Shown here one piece after another: positions 45,101 to 57,100 of a DNA stretch of 64,000 nucleotides (position 1 is the stretch's first letter; the number at the start of each line of letters is the position of its first letter). This stretch comes from Escherichia coli. Lineage in GTDB: Bacteria > Pseudomonadota > Gammaproteobacteria > Enterobacterales > Enterobacteriaceae. Location of the stretch: the NCBI RefSeq assembly GCF_045037415.1, contig NZ_CP173438.1; one strand, given 5' to 3'. Position numbers: made by a program.

Positions 45101-48100
45101 AACTGCTGGATAAAACGGATATTGACGATGTTACCCAGCTTGCGAAAGCGGGCGCGCAAATCCGCCAGTGGATTATCGACACTCCCTTCCAGCCTGAGCT
45201 GGAAAACGCCATCCGCGAAGCCTATGCACAGCTTTCCGCCGATGACGAAAACGCTTCGTTTGCGGTGCGTTCCTCCGCTACTGCAGAAGATATGCCGGAC
45301 GCTTCTTTTGCCGGTCAGCAGGAAACTTTCCTCAACGTTCAGGGTGTTGACGCCGTTCTCGTGGCAGTGAAGCATGTATTCGCTTCTCTGTTTAACGATC
45401 GCGCCATCTCTTATCGTGTGCACCAGGGTTACGACCATCGTGGCGTAGCGCTCTCCGCCGGTGTTCAGCGGATGGTGCGCTCCGACCTCGCATCTTCTGG
45501 CGTGATGTTCTCCATTGATACCGAATCCGGCTTTGACCAGGTGGTGTTTATCACTTCCGCATGGGGCCTTGGTGAAATGGTCGTGCAGGGTGCGGTTAAC
45601 CCGGATGAGTTTTACGTCCATAAACCGACACTTGCGGCGAATCGCCCGGCTATCGTGCGCCGCACCATGGGGTCGAAAAAAATCCGCATGGTTTACGCGC
45701 CGACCCAGGAGCACGGCAAGCAGGTTAAAATCGAAGACGTACCGCAGGAACAGCGTGACATCTTCTCGCTGACCAACGAAGAAGTGCAGGAACTGGCAAA
45801 ACAGGCCGTACAAATTGAGAAACACTACGGTCGCCCGATGGATATTGAGTGGGCGAAAGATGGTCACACCGGCAAACTGTTCATTGTGCAGGCGCGTCCG
45901 GAAACCGTGCGCTCACGCGGTCAGGTCATGGAGCGTTATACGCTGCATTCACAGGGTAAGATTATCGCCGAAGGCCGTGCTATCGGTCATCGCATCGGCG
46001 CGGGTCCGGTGAAAGTTATCCATGACATCAGTGAAATGAACCGCATCGAACCTGGCGACGTGCTGGTTACTGACATGACCGACCCGGACTGGGAACCGAT
46101 CATGAAGAAAGCATCTGCCATCGTCACCAATCGTGGCGGTCGTACCTGTCACGCGGCGATCATCGCTCGTGAACTCGGCATTCCGGCGGTAGTGGGCTGT
46201 GGTGATGCAACAGAACGGATGAAAGACGGCGAGAACGTCACTGTTTCTTGTGCCGAAGGTGATACCGGTTACGTCTATGCGGAGTTGCTGGAATTTAGCG
46301 TTAAAAGCTCCAGCGTAGAAACGATGCCGGACCTGCCGTTGAAGGTGATGATGAACGTCGGTAACCCGGACCGTGCTTTCGACTTCGCCTGCCTGCCGAA
46401 CGAAGGCGTGGGCCTTGCGCGTCTGGAATTTATCATCAACCGTATGATTGGCGTCCACCCACGCGCACTGCTTGAGTTTGACGATCAGGAACCGCAGTTG
46501 CAAAACGAAATCCGCGAGATGATGAAAGGTTTTGATTCTCCGCGTGAATTTTACGTTGGTCGTCTGACTGAAGGGATCGCGACGCTGGGTGCCGCGTTTT
46601 ATCCGAAGCGCGTCATTGTCCGTCTCTCTGATTTTAAATCGAACGAATATGCCAATCTGGTCGGTGGTGAGCGTTACGAGCCAGATGAAGAGAACCCGAT
46701 GCTCGGCTTCCGTGGCGCGGGCCGCTATGTTTCCGACAGCTTCCGCGACTGCTTCGCGCTGGAGTGTGAAGCAGTGAAACGTGTGCGCAACGACATGGGG
46801 CTGACTAACGTTGAGATCATGATCCCGTTCGTGCGTACCGTTGATCAGGCGAAAGCGGTGGTTGAGGAACTGGCGCGTCAGGGGCTGAAACGTGGTGAGA
46901 ACGGGCTGAAAATCATCATGATGTGTGAAATTCCGTCCAACGCCTTGCTGGCAGAGCAGTTCCTGGAATATTTCGACGGCTTCTCAATTGGCTCAAACGA
47001 CATGACGCAGCTGGCGCTCGGTCTGGATCGTGACTCCGGCGTGGTGTCTGAACTGTTCGATGAGCGCAACGATGCGGTGAAAGCACTGCTGTCGATGGCG
47101 ATTCGTGCCGCGAAGAAACAGGGCAAATATGTCGGGATTTGCGGTCAGGGTCCATCCGACCACGAAGACTTTGCTGCATGGTTGATGGAAGAGGGGATCG
47201 ATAGCCTGTCTCTGAACCCGGACACCGTGGTGCAAACCTGGTTAAGCCTGGCTGAACTGAAGAAATAAAATAAATACCCGGCGGCGTTTTGTCGCCGGGT
47301 TTATGTGATCCCCGAAGATGAAACTTATTCAATCTCTTCACAGACATCCTGAGTTAATCGCCGCATAATATCTTTCCTTAACAAAAACTTTTGTATTTTA
47401 CCTGAGACAGTGCGCGGTAGTTTTTCGATTACCACGATATGTTCAGGATATTTATATTTTGCGACCCGTTTACGGCTAAAAAAAGCCACCACCTCTTCCA
47501 GCGATAATGAATGATGCGGCGCTTTCAGCACGACATAAGCGCATGAACGTTCACCTAAACGTTCATCGGGCATCGCAACCACACAGGCATCGTGAATTTT
47601 AGGATGCTGCAATAAAATATCTTCTACTTCACGGCTGCTAATATTTTCGCCGCCGCGGACAATAATATCTTTCTTGCGCCCGGTTATTTTTATATAGCCA
47701 GCCTCATCCATGCGGCAGAGATCGCCGCTGTAATACCAGCCTTCTTCATCCAGCGCACGGGCGGTTAATTCAGGTTCATCAAAATACCCCATAAACACAT
47801 TGGGGCCACGCGAGGCTTCTTCACCTTCGCAACCTGGCGGTAAAGTCTTGCGTGCGTCATCGACCACTTTAATCTCTACACCTGCGGCAGCGTAACCGTC
47901 GGTGTGCATAAAGCGCGGCAAAGGATCGTCGAGATTCACCACCGCATGCGGCGAACTTTCTGTGGAACCATAAACACTTAATAATTTAATGCCGCGCTGC
48001 TGGCATTCTCGCGCCACTTTTTTGGGGATTGTGGTACCTCCGCAAAGAAAGAAGCGCAGCGCTGAAAGGTCTGCGGGTTGTTTCTCTAGTAAATTCAAAA

Positions 48101-54100: not shown

Positions 54101-57100
54101 CATCACATTGAGGAAACCCATTCCTTCTTCGCCCACCATGTCGCTCTCTTCAACTTCCACGTTGTCGAGATAGACTTCGCAGGTGCTGAGCATATGCCAG
54201 CCGATTTTATGCAGTGGATTGATTTTAATGCCGGGCTTACTGGAGTCGACCCACCACAGAGTAAAGGCCTTTTTCGGATCTTTCGGTTGCGGATCGCGCG
54301 CCAACACCAGCATATATGGATACTCTTTCGCACCGGTAATAAAGGTTTTCTGTCCGTTGATGTAAACCTTGCCGTTTTTACGCGTGTAAGTGGTAGTGGC
54401 ACTGTTGTTGTCTGAGCCTGCGCCTGGCTCCGTCAATGCCAGGGCATAGGCGGGATCACCCGTTTCCAGGGTGCTCTCTGCCGTTTTACGTAGCTGCTCT
54501 GCAGAACCGAAACGGCGCATACTGTGAATACATTGACCGTTGGTAATCAAAAATGCCGGAGCACCGCATTTTGACACTTCCATCAGCGCCAGCATTTGGG
54601 TGACGTAATCCGCAGGGATACCACCAAATTCTTCCGGCACGCCAAGCATGGAAATACCGTTATCCGCCAGTGCCCGCATAAACTCACGCGGGTATGTCCC
54701 GTTTTGATCGCAGGTGCGGAAATACTCTTCCGGAAAGTTAGTCGTAATCAGTTCGCGAATACTGGCCAGCAGCAGTTCTTGTTCTTCAGTTAAAGAGAAA
54801 TCCATCATTATACTCCTGTTAATGAGCCGCTTCAGGCAGGACAAAACCCATCGCCGCATCGATAAATAATCTTTCGTCCATCAGTTTGAGTTCTGGCGAA
54901 ATCACTGGGGTGAAATCCATTTTGTCGAGAATATCTTTTTGTAAATCGACGCCAGGAGCGATTTCGATTAAATGCAGGCCGTCTTCTTTTAGCGTGAATA
55001 CGGCGCGCTCAGTGATATAACGAACATCCAGCCCTCGCTCGAGAGCGATTTTTCCGCTGAAAGTTATTTCCGGTAGTTCCCGAATAAATTTCTTCACCCG
55101 TCCTTCCTGGACGATATTTAATTTGCCGTCGGTAATTTCTGTTTTTAAACTGCCCGCAGTTAATGTGCCGCAGAAAACGATTTTCTTCGAAGTGGCACTG
55201 ATATCAATAAATCCACCGGTGCCCATGATTTTACCATTGAATTTATGCACGCCGACGTTACCGTGCTGGTCGACTTCAGCAAAACTCAAATAACAAACAT
55301 CCAGACCACCACCGTGATAAAAATCAAACTGGGACGTCATATCCAGAATGGCGCGGGTATTCACGTTCGCGCCAAAGGCGATCCCCTGTGAAGTAATACC
55401 GCCAATCGGACCTGTTTCTACCGTCAGAATAAAGTCATCAGCACAACCTTCTTCCCGGGCGACCAGGCCAATGCCGTCAGCAATACCGACGCCGACATTC
55501 CCCACTGCGCCTTTGCGCATTTCGAATAATGCACGCCGTGCAACTAATTTACGTTGGTTTAGGGGCAGGCTAAGTTTGGTGCTGTCATCAAGGGTGAAGT
55601 CACCAGAAATAAAGCGGTTAACCGGCGCACCGCCATACAGTTGGGTTTGATCCGGATCGACCACCACAATATCCACCAGATAACCCGGAATACGGACAGA
55701 TTTAGGATGCAGCGTGGCTTTCTTAACCATTTTCTGCACCTGCATCATCACAATACCGCCGTTATTGTGCACCGCCTGGGCAATAACCAATGCGTCGAGA
55801 TACATCACCTCATCTTCAAAAGTGGCGTAGCCTTCGCTGTCGCAGGTGGTAGCGCGAATGAAGGCGATATCTGGCGCAATCGCTTTGTAATAGAGATATT
55901 CTTTGTTATCAAACTCGACCAGTTTAATCAGGTCTTCTTTAGTGACTTCATTCAGTTTGCCGCCTTGCTGGCGTGGATCGACAAATGTTCCGATGCCAAT
56001 ATCACTAATAATACCAGGCTGGTGGGCTGCGGCGGCGCGTAAGGTTTGTGTAAGTACACCTTGTGGATAGTTATAAGCAATAATTTTATTTTGTTCTGCG
56101 AGATCAGAAATACGCGGTGATTGTCCCCAGTGACCGCATAATGCCCATTTCACCAGGCCTTCTTGCGCCAGCGGACTAATACCACGGTCGGCGCGATCGC
56201 CAAGCCCTGTTGGACTAATAATCGATAAATTACGTGGTGTTTGAGTCTGTTTATATTTATCAGCAAGAGCAGTAATTAACGTGGTGGCTTCCAGAATACC
56301 GCCGCCAGCGCCTAACACACAAAGTGTTGCTTCGTCGGGAATATAATTCACCGCTTCCTGTGCCGATAGGACCGGCACTCGTCCATTAATACGAGGTGGT
56401 TTTACAGGTTTCATTGTTAATTCCTGATTCAGGTGTGATTTTCCCTACGCCAGATGGAGAATTAGCGCACAGAGACTCACGAAATATTTTTATTAAATAC
56501 GGTTAAAAATACTTTTTTTAGTTCGGCGGGAGAGGGTATTCCCGCCGAAAATATTATTGCTTATGCCTGATGTAAAATAGTTAATACCGTACGCAAATCA
56601 TTTACCGAGATTTGCCCTGGCGCAGAGGCTTTTTTTACCGCACCAAAAGTTGCCGCCGACCCAAATACTTCACCAGCCAGACGAGAAATTACGCCAGTTT
56701 TTGCCATCGACATCGTGATGATTGGACGATCGGCATACTGCTCCTGCATCTCCAGGGTCGCGGCAAGCAACGTCAGCACATCGCTGGTACTTTGCGGCAT
56801 CAGCGCAATCTTAGGAATATCGGCGTCGAAGGACTGCATTTTGCGCAGACGGGCAATGATTTCTTCGGCTTCCGGCGTTTTATGGAAGTCATGGTTGGAC
56901 ATGACAACTTTCACATCATGCGCGTGGGCGTAGGCGACGGTTTCTTTAACCTGATCATCGCCGGTAAATAACTCCAGATCGATCATATCAACCAGGCCGC
57001 TGTCGATGGCTGCACGATTGAGTGCAATATAAGCCTCGGTGGAAATCGCCTGCTCGCCGCCTTCTTTGGCACTGCGGAAGGTAAACAGCAGCGGTTTTTC

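What the first reader, a model, noticed from the sequence alone, without database searches (positions are those of the whole stretch)
47325..56414. ydiQRST-fadK and ydiO-ydiF cluster with divergent AraC regulator ydiP
Seven minus-strand genes encode ETF beta and alpha subunits, an ETF:quinone oxidoreductase, a ferredoxin, an acyl-CoA synthetase, an acyl-CoA dehydrogenase and a CoA-transferase. An AraC-type regulator is divergently transcribed between the two groups. This is the anaerobic short/medium-chain acyl-CoA redox module, several components of which are still only partly characterised biochemically. The tight spacing (ydiT/ydiS overlap; 2-nt gap between ydiT and a possible fadK start) suggests coupled expression. 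It is the most system-like block in the window, but it is a known E. coli locus and not novel.
Basis: partly seen in the sequence, partly recalled or inferred. Interest (0 to 1): 0.3.

Follow-up and report, generated by a model that had tools for sequence, protein, structure and literature searches.

The report
E. coli ydi acyl-CoA redox cluster
This is the long-annotated E. coli ydi cluster (acyl-CoA dehydrogenase, electron-transfer flavoprotein chain, CoA-transferase, CoA-ligase, AraC regulator), but cross-species comparison suggests it works with the adjacent shikimate/quinate genes, perhaps to use shikimate as an electron acceptor rather than only to oxidise fatty acids.

Summary
Window 47325-56414 is the E. 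coli ydiF-ydiO / ydiP / ydiQRST-fadK locus, present in 5424 of 5426 complete E. coli genomes, and every family call holds. The locus is known. Its textbook label, anaerobic short/medium-chain beta-oxidation, looks incomplete.

- **Synteny.** In 41 of 41 informative loci, ydiB-aroD lies directly upstream of ydiF-ydiO. Four different gene orders keep the type I dehydroquinase with the CoA-transferase/ACAD/ETF genes. In two of them it sits between the ETF-alpha and FixC-like genes.
- **Shared operator.** A triad of TGCAA(G/T)AT boxes spaced 21 and 73 nt occurs twice in the 64-kb window: upstream of ydiQ and upstream of ydiN (0.025 box pairs expected by chance).
- **Paralogy.** YdiO and YdiQRST are paralogues of CaiA and FixABCX, the crotonobetainyl-CoA reduction system.
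- **Phenotype elsewhere.** Sutterella wadsworthensis carries the block and is reported to respire shikimate to hydroshikimate.

Best reading (confidence about 0.4): a Cai/Fix-like, CoA-dependent reduction of shikimoyl-CoA. This is unproven.

No FNR, ArcA, CRP or FadR consensus lies in the divergent spacer. The 2-nt ydiT-fadK gap is specific to Escherichia.

The parts
47325..49025 (-). fadK (ydiD), an AMP-forming medium/short-chain acyl-CoA ligase. The long ORF is 566 aa. The homology-supported start is Met19 at 48971 (548 aa).
   Evidence: Searches give the coordinates and both annotated starts. NCBIfam NF004758 scores 1086 bits and aligns from residue 19. The N-terminal extension is absent or closed by a stop codon outside Escherichia.
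48995..49015 (-). GC-rich hairpin CAGGCCCGCATCTCGGGCCTG between the ydiT stop and the Met19 fadK start.
   Evidence: Found. The fold is -21.6 kcal/mol but z = -1.27, which is not remarkable.
49028..49321 (-). ydiT, a FixX-type ferredoxin-like protein with one C-x2-C-x2-C-x3-C motif plus Cys45.
   Evidence: NF011993 FixX scores 143.5 bits. The best PDB match is 7KOE_D. It is 63% identical to FixX.
49318..50607 (-). ydiS, a FixC-type ETF:quinone oxidoreductase. It overlaps ydiT by 4 nt.
   Evidence: Pfam ETFQO_UQ-bd, DAO and FAD_binding_3. NF007450 scores 974 bits. 7KOE_C matches at 5e-71. It is 62% identical to FixC.
50662..51600 (-). ydiR, ETF alpha subunit.
   Evidence: Pfam ETF and ETF_alpha. 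NF008884 scores 686 bits. The best PDB matches are 5OL2_A, 7QH2_A and 6FAH_A. It is 44% identical to FixB.
51620..52384 (-). ydiQ, ETF beta subunit.
   Evidence: Pfam ETF. NF008998 scores 499 bits. The best PDB match is CarD, 6FAH_B. It is 55% identical to FixA.
52497..52605 (-). Operator-like triad upstream of ydiQ: box1 AAACAAGATTATT (52593-52605), box2 ATGCAAGATAGTA (52572-52584) and box3 TTGCAAGATTGTTGG (52497-52511). The spacings are 21 and 73 nt, and all boxes are on the ydiQ sense strand.
   Evidence: The box pair is conserved in 13 of the 14 spacers examined (about 12 genera). It is one of only two such pairs in the window, against 0.025 expected.
52700..53611 (+). ydiP, an AraC-family regulator (cupin domain plus two HTH), divergent from ydiQ and convergent with ydiO.
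   Evidence: It was renamed CsiP in a cold-shock study. ChIP-exo in glucose M9 found only weak sites, all elsewhere in the genome.
52830..52853 (-). Published FNR ChIP-chip site (K-12: CTTTCTTGACGTAAATCAACTCGG), which lies inside the ydiP coding sequence. In this strain the half-site ATCAA reads ATCAG.
53654..54805 (-). ydiO, a CaiA-like acyl-CoA dehydrogenase / enoyl-CoA reductase. Gly replaces the canonical catalytic Glu (IGGGT) and Glu241 is kept on helix G.
   Evidence: NF008997 scores 787 bits, and the CaiA model scores 452 bits, below its 540-bit cutoff. It is 48% identical to CaiA. The protein is identical to K-12 YdiO.
54819..56414 (-). ydiF, a fused alpha/beta family I CoA-transferase.
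   Evidence: Pfam CoA_trans. The sequence is that of PDB 2AHU/2AHV/2AHW. Staph FadX is the nearest NCBIfam model at 389 bits.
56561..57319 (-). aroD, type I 3-dehydroquinate dehydratase. Proposed here to belong to the same functional unit.
   Evidence: One search gives the annotation. It is adjacent to or embedded in the module in all four gene orders. The catalytic residues E86, H143, K170, R213 and S232 are kept in the embedded copies.
57350..58216 (-). ydiB, NAD-dependent quinate/shikimate dehydrogenase. Proposed to be part of the unit.
   Evidence: One search gives the annotation. It is linked in gene orders A, B and C. It is reported as up-regulated together with aroD and ydiN in a shikimate producer.
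58228..59493 (-). ydiN, an MFS transporter. Proposed to be the substrate transporter of the unit.
   Evidence: One search gives the annotation. A YdiN-like MFS gene heads the module in L003, L008, L009 and Sutterella.
59612..59720 (-). Operator-like triad upstream of ydiN: box1 ATGCAATATTCTT (59708-59720, abutting the ydiM stop), box2 ATGCAAGATCTTA (59687-59699) and box3 ATGCAATATTCCTGG (59612-59626). The geometry is the same 21/73-nt spacing as at ydiQ.
56522..56549 (-). Hairpin in the aroD-ydiF spacer (TTCGGCGGGAATACCCTCTCCCGCCGAA). It may be a partial terminator. No operator boxes occur in this spacer.

Best explanation
The stretch is the known E. coli ydi locus.

Shown here:
- It encodes a CaiA-like acyl-CoA dehydrogenase/enoyl-CoA reductase (YdiO).
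- It encodes an ETF (YdiQR) with a FixC-type quinone oxidoreductase and a one-cluster FixX-type ferredoxin (YdiS, YdiT).
- It encodes a family I CoA-transferase (YdiF), an acyl-CoA ligase (FadK) and an AraC-type regulator (YdiP).
- The unit that is conserved across bacteria is larger. It also holds ydiN (MFS transporter), ydiB (quinate/shikimate dehydrogenase) and aroD (dehydroquinase).
- The ydiN and ydiQ promoters carry the same triad of TGCAA(G/T)AT boxes, so the two operons look like one regulon.

Inferred:
- The system works like Cai/Fix crotonobetaine reduction, and like Acetobacterium caffeate respiration (CarABCDE).
- Quinate or shikimate enters through YdiN.
- YdiB and AroD convert quinate through 3-dehydroquinate and 3-dehydroshikimate to shikimate. 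Shikimate has a C1=C2 double bond conjugated to its carboxylate.
- YdiF makes shikimoyl-CoA in a CoA loop, which FadK primes with ATP.
- YdiO reduces the enoyl-CoA to 3,4,5-trihydroxycyclohexane-1-carbonyl-CoA.
- The electrons come from the (mena)quinol pool through YdiS/T and YdiQR.
- YdiF then releases hydroshikimate.
- YdiP is the likely sensor and regulator.
- The fatty-acyl-CoA activities reported for FadK and YdiO would be side or secondary activities.
For: -
- Paralogy to K-12 Cai/Fix: YdiO-CaiA 48%, YdiQ-FixA 55%, YdiR-FixB 44%, YdiS-FixC 62%, YdiT-FixX 63%, FadK-CaiC 30%. YdiO and CaiA share the unusual Gly at the canonical catalytic Glu position and keep the helix-G Glu.
- Synteny: 41 of 41 loci with YdiO at 80% identity or more, and enough contig, have ydiB-aroD directly upstream of ydiF-ydiO. 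Salmonella has the same order.
- Four gene orders keep the link:
  - (A) Enterobacterales: M-N-B-D-F-O | P | Q-R-S-T-K.
  - (B) Sutterella: T-S-R-Q divergent from N-B-D-F-O.
  - (C) L003/L004: N-F-O-Q-R-B-D-S-T-HAD, with 11-28-nt gaps at all but two junctions.
  - (D) L009: MFS-F-O-Q-R-D-S-T-K.
- The embedded dehydroquinases keep all catalytic residues.
- Locus G+C ranges from 42% to 60%, and Sutterella YdiF and YdiO are 80-84% identical to those of E. coli. This points to transfer of the block as a unit.
- Regulon: CAA[GT]AT-N15-CAA[GT]AT occurs exactly twice in 64 kb, against 0.025 expected. The two places are upstream of ydiN and upstream of ydiQ, and each extends to a 100-nt triad.
- The box pair is conserved upstream of ydiQ in 13 of the 14 spacers examined (about 12 genera). 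Pairs are also present next to the AraC gene in L003/L004, at both promoters in L008 and in S. wadsworthensis. They are absent from L009, which has LysR genes instead of AraC.
- Phenotype: S. wadsworthensis grows better with formate plus shikimate and reduces its enoate group to hydroshikimate. The enzyme was not identified in that species, and the paper never mentions acyl-CoA or ETF.
- ydiB, aroD and ydiN are reported up in one shikimate-overproducing E. coli, and ydiQRST differ 20-32-fold between growth phases of another.
- There is no FadR, CRP, FNR or ArcA consensus in the three spacers.
Against: - No experiment links YdiF, YdiO or YdiQRST to shikimate or quinate. No paper in the held library does either.
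- Genetic work supports a fatty-acid role. fadK is needed with fadD for anaerobic growth on fatty acids, and FadK prefers C6-C8 in vitro. Salmonella ydiQRSTD is reported to support anaerobic butyrate use.
- In E. lenta the shikimate reductase is a flavin reductase. S. wadsworthensis has many of those, so its phenotype may not come from the Ydi block.
- YdiP ChIP-exo in glucose M9 found no peak at ydiQ or ydiN. YdiP has instead been tied to cold-shock genes.
- shiA, the known shikimate importer, has no boxes.
- Within Enterobacterales the synteny could be plain vertical inheritance, and aroD is also the housekeeping biosynthetic gene.
- In Pectobacteriaceae CE70 (L010), ydiQRST-fadK sits with other ACAD genes and has no ydiF, aroD or ydiB within 10 kb.
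- The transcriptome data have no non-producing control.
- The direction of electron flow is inferred only from the Cai/Fix analogy.
Confidence: 0.4

Rival explanations
1. Textbook reading. The cluster is the anaerobic beta-oxidation module for short and medium-chain fatty acids such as butyrate.
- FadK activates the acid.
- YdiO dehydrogenates acyl-CoA.
- YdiQRST carry the electrons to the quinone pool for nitrate or tetrathionate respiration.
- The neighbouring aroD-ydiB-ydiN genes are unrelated.
For: - A fadD fadK double mutant cannot use fatty acids, and FadK is most active on C6-C8 (review).
- The anaerobic pathway is attributed to ydiFO, ydiQRST and fadHIJK in Salmonella genomics.
- Butyrate use depends on ydiQRSTD in S. 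Typhimurium.
- NCBIfam names FadK a medium-chain fatty-acid-CoA ligase, and YdiF's nearest model is the Staphylococcus fatty-acid-degradation protein FadX.
Against: - The 2022 review states that evidence for YdiQR is lacking. It also states that fadK induction in anaerobiosis was not reproduced and that there is no FadR or CRP control.
- No FadR, CRP, FNR or ArcA consensus lies in the spacers.
- The locus holds no hydratase, dehydrogenase or thiolase genes.
- This reading does not explain why a dehydroquinase gene sits between the ETF-alpha and FixC genes in two lineages.
- It does not explain why ydiN and ydiQ share an operator triad.
- fadK is missing from gene orders B and C.
Confidence: 0.3
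2. Same hydroaromatic substrates, opposite direction. YdiO oxidises a saturated cyclohexane-carboxyl-CoA (hydroshikimoyl-CoA or a related gut metabolite) to the enoyl-CoA. YdiQRST deliver the electrons to quinone. YdiB and AroD then feed the product into, or out of, the shikimate pathway, either as salvage or as an electron donor.
For: - The synteny and regulon evidence is the same as for the best explanation.
- YdiS has an ETF-QO ubiquinone-binding domain, and canonical ETF-QO enzymes reduce quinone.
- Hydroshikimate is made by other gut bacteria.
- FadK and YdiO give sub-threshold hits to cyclohexanecarboxylate-CoA ligase and dehydrogenase models.
Against: - The closest paralogues, CaiA and FixABCX, act reductively in E. 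coli (annotation; review).
- The Sutterella phenotype is a reduction.
- E. coli has no known route from shikimate or dehydroshikimate to central carbon.
Confidence: 0.12
3. The linkage carries no shared pathway. YdiQRST is a general electron-transfer chain serving several ACADs. The box triad belongs to a starvation or stress regulator that happens to control both operons.
For: - In L010, ydiQRST-fadK sits next to different ACAD genes with no ydiF, aroD or ydiB.
- A third paralogous ACAD/ETF module exists in E. albertii.
- YdiP has been linked to cold-shock genes.
- ydiQRST expression changes with growth phase.
Against: - Four rearranged gene orders keep aroD with the ydiF-ydiO-ETF genes.
- The N-B-D-F-O block appears to have been transferred to Sutterella as a unit, at 63-84% identity.
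- The boxes co-occur with the AraC gene and are absent where LysR genes replace it.
Confidence: 0.1

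Closest known systems
E. coli CaiTABCDE-FixABCX (carnitine/crotonobetaine reduction)
   Same: - Closest paralogues: CaiA-YdiO 48%, FixA/B/C/X-YdiQ/R/S/T 55/44/62/63%, CaiC-FadK 30%.
- Two divergent or adjacent operons in both loci.
- ACAD-type reductase plus ETF plus FixC/FixX.
- A ligase alongside a CoA-transferase.
- CaiA and YdiO share the Gly-for-Glu active-site signature.
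   Different: - YdiF is a family I CoA-transferase, whereas CaiB is family III.
- There is no crotonase (CaiD). A type I dehydroquinase and a shikimate dehydrogenase are present instead.
- The transporter is MFS rather than the BCCT-type CaiT.
- The regulator is AraC-type rather than CaiF.
- The substrate is not established.
Acetobacterium woodii caffeate respiration, CarABCDE (caffeyl-CoA reductase-Etf, PDB 6FAH)
   Same: - The logic is the same (from my own knowledge of that system). An alpha,beta-unsaturated plant acid is activated by a ligase for priming and a CoA-transferase for the loop, then reduced by an ACAD-type enzyme with an ETF.
- CarD is the best PDB match of YdiQ. CarE and CarC also match YdiR and YdiO.
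   Different: - CarCDE is a soluble, ferredoxin-reducing, bifurcating complex without FixC/FixX.
- YdiQ diverges in the beta-subunit motif (DGDTAQVG versus DLYAQQVG).
- Identities are low.
Thermotoga maritima EtfABCX / diazotroph FixABCX (bifurcating, PDB 7KOE)
   Same: YdiS and YdiT have their best PDB matches in 7KOE chains C and D, at 5e-71 and 9e-14. The four-subunit make-up is the same.
   Different: - YdiT has only one Fe-S cysteine motif, and in the alignment it lacks the N-terminal Cys-rich stretch of the T. maritima chain.
- 7KOE_A and 7KOE_B are not the best matches of YdiQ and YdiR.
- Bifurcation was not tested.
fad regulon / anaerobic beta-oxidation (FadK, FadIJ)
   Same: FadK is an experimentally characterised acyl-CoA synthetase assigned to this pathway. 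YdiO is an ACAD.
   Different: - There is no FadR box.
- The locus has no hydratase, dehydrogenase or thiolase.
- The role of YdiO and YdiQRST has not been shown experimentally.
Eggerthella lenta shikimate-induced flavin reductase (Little et al.)
   Same: It catalyses the proposed net reaction, shikimate to hydroshikimate, as anaerobic respiration in the gut.
   Different: It is an unrelated enzyme type, a UrdA/fumarate-reductase-like flavoprotein acting on the free acid, with no CoA esters and no ETF.

Membership tests
Cai/Fix-type CoA-dependent enoate reduction system | CaiA-like ACAD-family reductase | tested here: met
   48% identity to CaiA. The CaiA model scores 452 bits, below its 540-bit cutoff, so YdiO is a paralogue and not CaiA. 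The two share the active-site signature.
Cai/Fix-type CoA-dependent enoate reduction system | FixABCX-like ETF, ETF:quinone oxidoreductase and ferredoxin | tested here: met
   44-63% identity. The FixA, FixB, FixC and FixX models are the second-best NCBIfam hits.
Cai/Fix-type CoA-dependent enoate reduction system | Family III CoA-transferase (CaiB) and crotonase-type dehydratase (CaiD) | tested here: not met
   YdiF is family I (PF01144; PDB 2AHU). BLASTP against the Cai proteins gave no hit for YdiF or AroD. AroD is only a functional analogue.
Cai/Fix-type CoA-dependent enoate reduction system | Reduction of an enoyl-CoA with electrons supplied through the Fix-like chain | not testable with these tools
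   This needs enzyme assays or mutant physiology.
fad regulon / anaerobic beta-oxidation | FadR operator and CRP site at the promoters | tested here: not met
   No FadR match with 4 or fewer mismatches, and only chance-level CRP matches, in the three spacers. The review also reports no FadR or CRP control of fadK.
fad regulon / anaerobic beta-oxidation | Complete cycle enzymes (hydratase, 3-hydroxyacyl-CoA dehydrogenase, thiolase) encoded with the ACAD | tested here: not met
   None lies among the annotated genes from ppsA to ydiM. They are encoded elsewhere, as fadIJ.
fad regulon / anaerobic beta-oxidation | Acyl-CoA synthetase active on fatty acids | tested here: met
   The NF004758 equivalog scores 1086 bits against a 736-bit cutoff. 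The published C6-C8 activity is reported by the review.
Electron-bifurcating ETF (Bcd/Etf, CarCDE, EtfABCX) | Second FAD site in the beta subunit and two Fe-S clusters in the X subunit | tested here: inconclusive
   The best PDB hits of YdiQ and YdiR are bifurcating ETFs. However, the motif DGDTAQVG reads DLYAQQVG in YdiQ, and YdiT has a single Cys motif. Cofactor content is not testable here.
AraC/XylS regulator with direct-repeat operator | Cupin ligand domain plus two HTH motifs, and direct-repeat half-sites about 21 bp apart at its target promoters | tested here: met
   Box pairs at 21-nt spacing occur at the ydiQ and ydiN promoters, next to the AraC gene in three gene orders, and are absent where LysR replaces AraC.
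AraC/XylS regulator with direct-repeat operator | Binding of YdiP to those boxes | tested here: inconclusive
   Published ChIP-exo in glucose M9 lists no ydiQ or ydiN peak. No data exist with a candidate inducer.
Family I CoA-transferase | Fused alpha/beta CoA_trans fold with a solved structure | tested here: met
   Full-length match to the chain of PDB 2AHU/2AHV/2AHW (E = 0, 1189 bits, residues 1-531 of 531).

The most novel reading that the evidence does not exclude
The block ydiN-ydiB-aroD-ydiF-ydiO / ydiP / ydiQRST-fadK is one regulon. It encodes a CoA-dependent shikimate (and, through YdiB and AroD, quinate) reductase pathway. In other words, it is a hydroaromatic-acid respiration system built on the Cai/Fix plan.

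If true, this would:
- give Enterobacterales and Sutterella the ability to use dietary or microbial shikimate and quinate as an electron acceptor;
- identify a second, non-flavin-reductase route to hydroshikimate in the gut;
- assign a function to about ten E. coli y-genes.
Probability: 0.4. Interest if true: 0.7.

Novelty: new member of a known kind. Interest (0 to 1): 0.45.

Why it matters
- **The genes are not new.** They have been annotated for decades and sit in nearly every E. coli genome.
- **The function is open.** YdiO, YdiF, YdiQRST, YdiP, YdiN and the physiological role of YdiB all belong to the E. coli y-ome. Reviews state that evidence for the beta-oxidation role of YdiQR is lacking.
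- **A single hypothesis would cover them.** It explains why E. coli keeps a second, NAD-dependent quinate/shikimate dehydrogenase beside aroD.
- **Gut metabolism.** It names candidate genes for the shikimate reduction seen in Sutterella.
- **Salmonella.** It bears on how to read the Salmonella ydi phenotypes in the inflamed gut and the decay of these genes in extraintestinal serovars.
- **Strain engineering.** It is relevant to shikimate-production strains, where ydiB, aroD and ydiN cause by-products, and to reverse-beta-oxidation designs that use YdiO/YdiQRST.

Tried and rejected
1. **FNR, ArcA, CRP and FadR consensus scans** of 52385-52699, 56415-56560 and 59494-59719 gave nothing above chance. 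The only published FNR site is inside ydiP.
2. **Generic promoter and terminator scan.** The counts equal the shuffle expectation, so it is not informative.
3. **Hairpin between ydiT and fadK** as an attenuator. The fold z-score is -1.27, so I did not pursue it.
4. **Boxes upstream of shiA** in K-12: none.
5. **Boxes in the aroD-ydiF spacer:** none. ydiF-ydiO are therefore either read through from ydiN or have another promoter.
6. **A sigma-54-like reading of TGGCA...TTGC after ydiQ box 3.** I rejected it because the GG-to-GC spacing counts to about 16-17 nt by hand from the sequence, not the 12 nt the consensus needs.
7. **CAATATTG palindromes in the cai-fix spacer** share the box core. I treat this as a possible coincidence.
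8. **The paper defining bifurcating ETF groups** is not held, so the ETF group of YdiQR could not be cited.
9. **Literature searches** for dihydroshikimate, shikimoyl-CoA, and ydiO or ydiF with shikimate found no prior link.
10. **Klebsiella synteny** could not be checked. The genome scan uses exact peptide patterns and returned no Klebsiella. Absence from that list is not evidence of absence.
11. **The first whole-stretch comparison with K-12** was thrown off by a 1-nt indel in the ydiR-ydiS spacer. I redid it per protein.

Full report
**1. The observation**

Megablast places the 9,090-nt stretch in 5424 of 5426 complete E. coli genomes. In 5346 of them it covers at least 80% of the query, and almost all places are chromosomal. 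A 100%-identical chromosome, strain SK1144, is annotated as follows:

| Gene | Product as annotated |
|---|---|
| fadK | medium-chain fatty-acid-CoA ligase |
| ydiT | ferredoxin family protein |
| ydiS | FAD-dependent oxidoreductase |
| ydiR | ETF alpha subunit |
| ydiQ | electron transfer flavoprotein |
| ydiP | AraC family regulator, opposite strand |
| ydiO | acyl-CoA dehydrogenase |
| ydiF | acyl-CoA:acetate/3-ketoacid CoA-transferase |

The flanks are ppsA on one side and aroD, ydiB, ydiN and ydiM on the other.

Pfam and NCBIfam confirm each family well above threshold. YdiF is the protein crystallised as 2AHU. Compared with K-12, YdiO and AroD are identical and the other proteins differ by 1-9 residues. 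There is one single-base indel in the ydiR-ydiS spacer.

**2. Details that need correcting**

*fadK start.* K-12 annotates the long ORF (566 aa, 2-nt gap after ydiT). PGAP starts at Met19 (48971, 548 aa). Three results favour Met19:
- The NCBIfam equivalog aligns from residue 19.
- In Dickeya, Serratia, Prodigiosinella and Symbiopectobacterium an in-frame stop lies just upstream of the equivalent position.
- The ydiT-fadK gap outside Escherichia is 23-236 nt, or holds a whole extra MFS gene.

The 2-nt gap is therefore an Escherichia-specific ORF extension and is weak evidence for translational coupling. The hairpin in that gap is not thermodynamically unusual.

*FNR, ArcA and other global regulators.* No FNR site with 2 or fewer mismatches lies in 52385-52694. 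ArcA, CRP and FadR scans give only chance-level matches in this spacer and in the aroD-ydiF and ydiM-ydiN spacers. The FNR ChIP-chip target reported for ydiP/ydiQ maps inside the ydiP coding sequence, at 52830-52853. In this strain it has ATCAG in place of ATCAA.

**3. What the proteins resemble**

The second-best NCBIfam models for YdiQ, R, S, T and YdiO are FixA, FixB, FixC, FixX and CaiA. Direct comparison with the K-12 cai-fix locus gives:

| Pair | Identity |
|---|---|
| YdiQ-FixA | 55% |
| YdiR-FixB | 44% |
| YdiS-FixC | 62% |
| YdiT-FixX | 63% |
| YdiO-CaiA | 48% |
| FadK-CaiC | 30% |

Further points:
- YdiS and YdiT have their best solved relatives in chains C and D of the T. maritima EtfABCX complex, 7KOE.
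- YdiQ and YdiR match the ETFs of bifurcating complexes (CarDE 6FAH, 5OL2, LctBC 7QH2) better than human ETF.
- YdiQ differs from those complexes in a glycine/aspartate-rich motif of the beta subunit. YdiT has only one Fe-S cysteine motif. Whether the chain bifurcates is therefore open.
- YdiO and CaiA both have Gly where most ACADs have the catalytic Glu (IYEGT becomes IGGGT or VSGGS). Both keep a Glu in E-x-ERL on helix G. From established ACAD enzymology, this is the isovaleryl-CoA and long-chain dehydrogenase arrangement, which leaves room for bulkier substrates. That point is suggestive only.

**4. Surroundings in other genomes**

I looked at the genomic context of YdiO homologues. I then scanned one genome per GTDB species with a YdiO alignment and mapped the E. 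coli proteins onto the 47 loci returned.

In all 41 loci with YdiO at 80% identity or more, and enough contig, ydiB and aroD lie directly upstream of ydiF-ydiO. In the following taxa the whole string ydiM-ydiN-ydiB-aroD-ydiF-ydiO | ydiP | ydiQRST-fadK is kept:
- Escherichia, Citrobacter, Kosakonia, Intestinirhabdus
- Yersinia, Brenneria, Dickeya, Serratia
- Symbiopectobacterium, Prodigiosinella
- a genome labelled Martelella alba (its ydiM was not recovered)

Salmonella has the same order as far as its contig reaches.

Three other gene orders also exist:
- **Sutterella** (S. seckii and S. wadsworthensis, Betaproteobacteria). ydiT-S-R-Q is divergent from ydiN-ydiB-aroD-ydiF-ydiO. There is no fadK and no ydiP.
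- **L003/L004** (two metagenome contigs, 42% G+C). The order is AraC | ydiN-ydiF-ydiO-ydiQ-ydiR-ydiB-aroD-ydiS-ydiT-HAD, with 11-28-nt gaps at all but two junctions.
- **L009** (43% G+C). The order is MFS-ydiF-ydiO-ydiQ-ydiR-aroD-ydiS-ydiT-fadK, with LysR genes and aldo/keto reductases around it.

The dehydroquinases embedded in these operons keep E86, H143, K170, R213 and S232.

The link is not universal among more distant relatives:
- A 74%-identical YdiO stands alone.
- At 67-68% identity there is a different module in E. albertii and in a Pectobacteriaceae genome, with a second ACAD, an MFS gene, an AraC gene and desulfoferrodoxin. In the Pectobacteriaceae genome it sits next to ydiQRST-fadK, with no ydiF, aroD or ydiB nearby.

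**5. A shared operator**

Aligning the ydiP-ydiQ spacers of 14 loci showed conserved TGCAAGAT-type boxes.
- In the window they form a triad on the ydiQ sense strand, at 52593-52605, 52572-52584 and 52497-52511, spaced 21 and 73 nt.
- The ydiM-ydiN spacer carries the same triad with the same spacing, at 59708-59720, 59687-59699 and 59612-59626. The distances to the start codon are almost the same: 226/205/132 nt for ydiN against 220/199/126 nt for ydiQ.
- The pattern CAA[GT]AT-N15-CAA[GT]AT occurs exactly twice in the 64-kb window, at these two places. Shuffles give 0.025.
- The pair upstream of ydiQ is conserved in 13 of the 14 spacers examined (about 12 genera).
- Both triads are present in Escherichia, C. 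amalonaticus and Intestinirhabdus.
- Pairs also lie next to the AraC gene in L003/L004, at both promoters of L008, and in the ORF-free 1.36-kb ydiQ-ydiN gap of S. wadsworthensis.
- S. seckii has a one-mismatch version.
- L009, which has LysR genes instead of AraC, has none.

Direct repeats two helical turns apart are typical AraC-family operators, so YdiP is the obvious candidate regulator. Against this, published YdiP ChIP-exo in glucose minimal medium lists only weak sites elsewhere (sdhC, uxaB, secG, cspA). Another study ties YdiP to cold-shock genes. Binding is therefore unproven. No boxes occur in the aroD-ydiF spacer or upstream of shiA.

**6. Literature**

- The fatty-acid assignment rests mainly on FadK: the fadD fadK double-mutant phenotype and the C6-C8 preference. 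The 2022 review states that YdiQR are of unknown function, that evidence is lacking, that anaerobic induction of fadK was not reproduced in transcriptomes, and that there is no FadR or CRP control.
- Salmonella work attributes anaerobic butyrate use to ydiQRSTD.
- Little et al. showed that S. wadsworthensis and E. lenta gain growth from shikimate in formate medium and reduce its enoate group to hydroshikimate. A flavin reductase was induced in E. lenta. S. wadsworthensis was not profiled, and acyl-CoA or ETF enzymes are never mentioned. S. wadsworthensis DSM 14016 carries the ydi block.
- In shikimate-overproducing E. coli, ydiB, aroD and ydiN are reported up-regulated. ydiQRST differ 20-32-fold between growth phases, without a non-producer control.
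- No paper in the held library connects ydiO or ydiF with shikimate, or mentions shikimoyl-CoA in this context.

**7. Interpretation**

Three things are shown here: the gene content, the paralogy to Cai/Fix, the conserved physical linkage with aroD, ydiB and ydiN through rearrangement and apparent horizontal transfer, and the shared operator architecture.

The rest is inferred:
- Shikimate and 3-dehydroshikimate are the alpha,beta-unsaturated carboxylates that YdiB and AroD make.
- An ACAD-family enzyme acts on exactly that bond once the acid is a CoA thioester.
- A ligase plus a CoA-transferase plus an ACAD-type reductase plus an ETF is the plan of crotonobetaine reduction (Cai/Fix) and of caffeate respiration (CarABCDE).

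I therefore think the most likely physiological role is CoA-dependent reduction of shikimate, and of quinate through YdiB and AroD, to hydroshikimate with quinol-derived electrons. FadK would prime the CoA loop and YdiP would sense the substrate.

My confidence in this specific chemistry is about 0.4. My confidence that the conserved unit includes aroD, ydiB and ydiN is about 0.7.

The rivals are:
- the textbook fatty-acid reading, 0.3;
- the same chemistry run in the oxidative direction, 0.12;
- linkage without a shared pathway, 0.1.

**8. Verdict**

The finding is real and correctly identified, and the locus itself is not new.

The follow-up adds a concrete, testable functional hypothesis for a poorly characterised core E. 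coli cluster. It also adds a predicted regulon and corrections on the fadK start and the FNR site. I rate the system a new member of a known kind, a Cai/Fix- or Car-type system acting on a different substrate class, with moderate interest.

Noticed in passing
window 61526-61633 (-): RprA sRNA (Rfam RF00034, 118.5 bits), just beyond ydiM. Other Rfam hits in the window are the Phe leader at 32725-32849(+), STnc540 at 36690-36848(+) and ES036 at 10724-10766(-). No tRNA genes were found.
   Followed up: no
L059 8185-8300 (K-12 caiT-fixA spacer): There are three sets of TTTCAATATTGGTGA / AACAATATTGAAA palindromes. They share the CAATAT core of the ydi boxes and also fit the 21-nt pair pattern, on both strands. 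This may be a coincidence of an AT-rich palindrome, or a trace of common ancestry of the paralogous promoters.
   Followed up: partly
L007 (E. albertii) 4504-15054; L010 (Pectobacteriaceae CE70) 230-11788: A third paralogous module: a YdiO-like ACAD (67-68%) with a second, distant ACAD (28%), an MFS gene, an AraC gene and desulfoferrodoxin. E. albertii also has a family III CoA-transferase and its own ETF genes. In CE70 the module sits beside ydiQRST-fadK. The substrate is unknown.
   Followed up: partly
L005/L006 10001-11143: A 74%-identical YdiO homologue stands alone, with no ETF, CoA-transferase or shikimate genes within 10 kb, next to NrfD, Fe-S and multihaem cytochrome genes. The organism has 57% G+C.
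   Followed up: no
L053 (Enterobacter sp. EA-1) 6580-17455: ydiF, ydiO, ydiR and fadK give fragmented, overlapping tblastn pieces. They are either pseudogenes or frameshift errors in the assembly.
   Followed up: no
L046 (S. wadsworthensis) 3655-5018: A 1.36-kb stretch between ydiQ and ydiN has no ORF longer than 78 aa but holds a good box pair at 4226 (GTGCAAGATAGCC-N-CTGCAATATAGTT). No ydiP-like gene is in the locus.
   Followed up: partly
window 47325-56414 in other E. coli genomes: Several otherwise identical genomes match in two pieces, and IS elements (ISEcp1, IS5) are annotated under the match in two of them. Two of 5426 genomes lack the stretch, and 78 of the 5424 that hold it have no place covering at least 80% of it.
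   Followed up: no
window 52700-52760 (start of ydiP): A published FlhDC genomic-SELEX peak is listed inside ydiP, and its sequence matches the start of ydiP (52700-52740). A sigma-54 mapping paper also mentions ydiP and fadK; I did not read it.
   Followed up: no
L008/L043 16533-17918: In an Enterobacterales MAG an extra MFS transporter gene lies between ydiT and fadK.
   Followed up: no
window 52385-52699 and 59494-59719: Besides the boxes, the two E. coli promoters share TAGCGATC about 20 nt upstream of box 3 and a CCTGG/TTGG...GAAAAC stretch after box 3. A -10-like hexamer lies about 55 nt downstream of box 3 in both: TATAGT at 59562-59567, and CACTAT within 52442-52450.
   Followed up: partly
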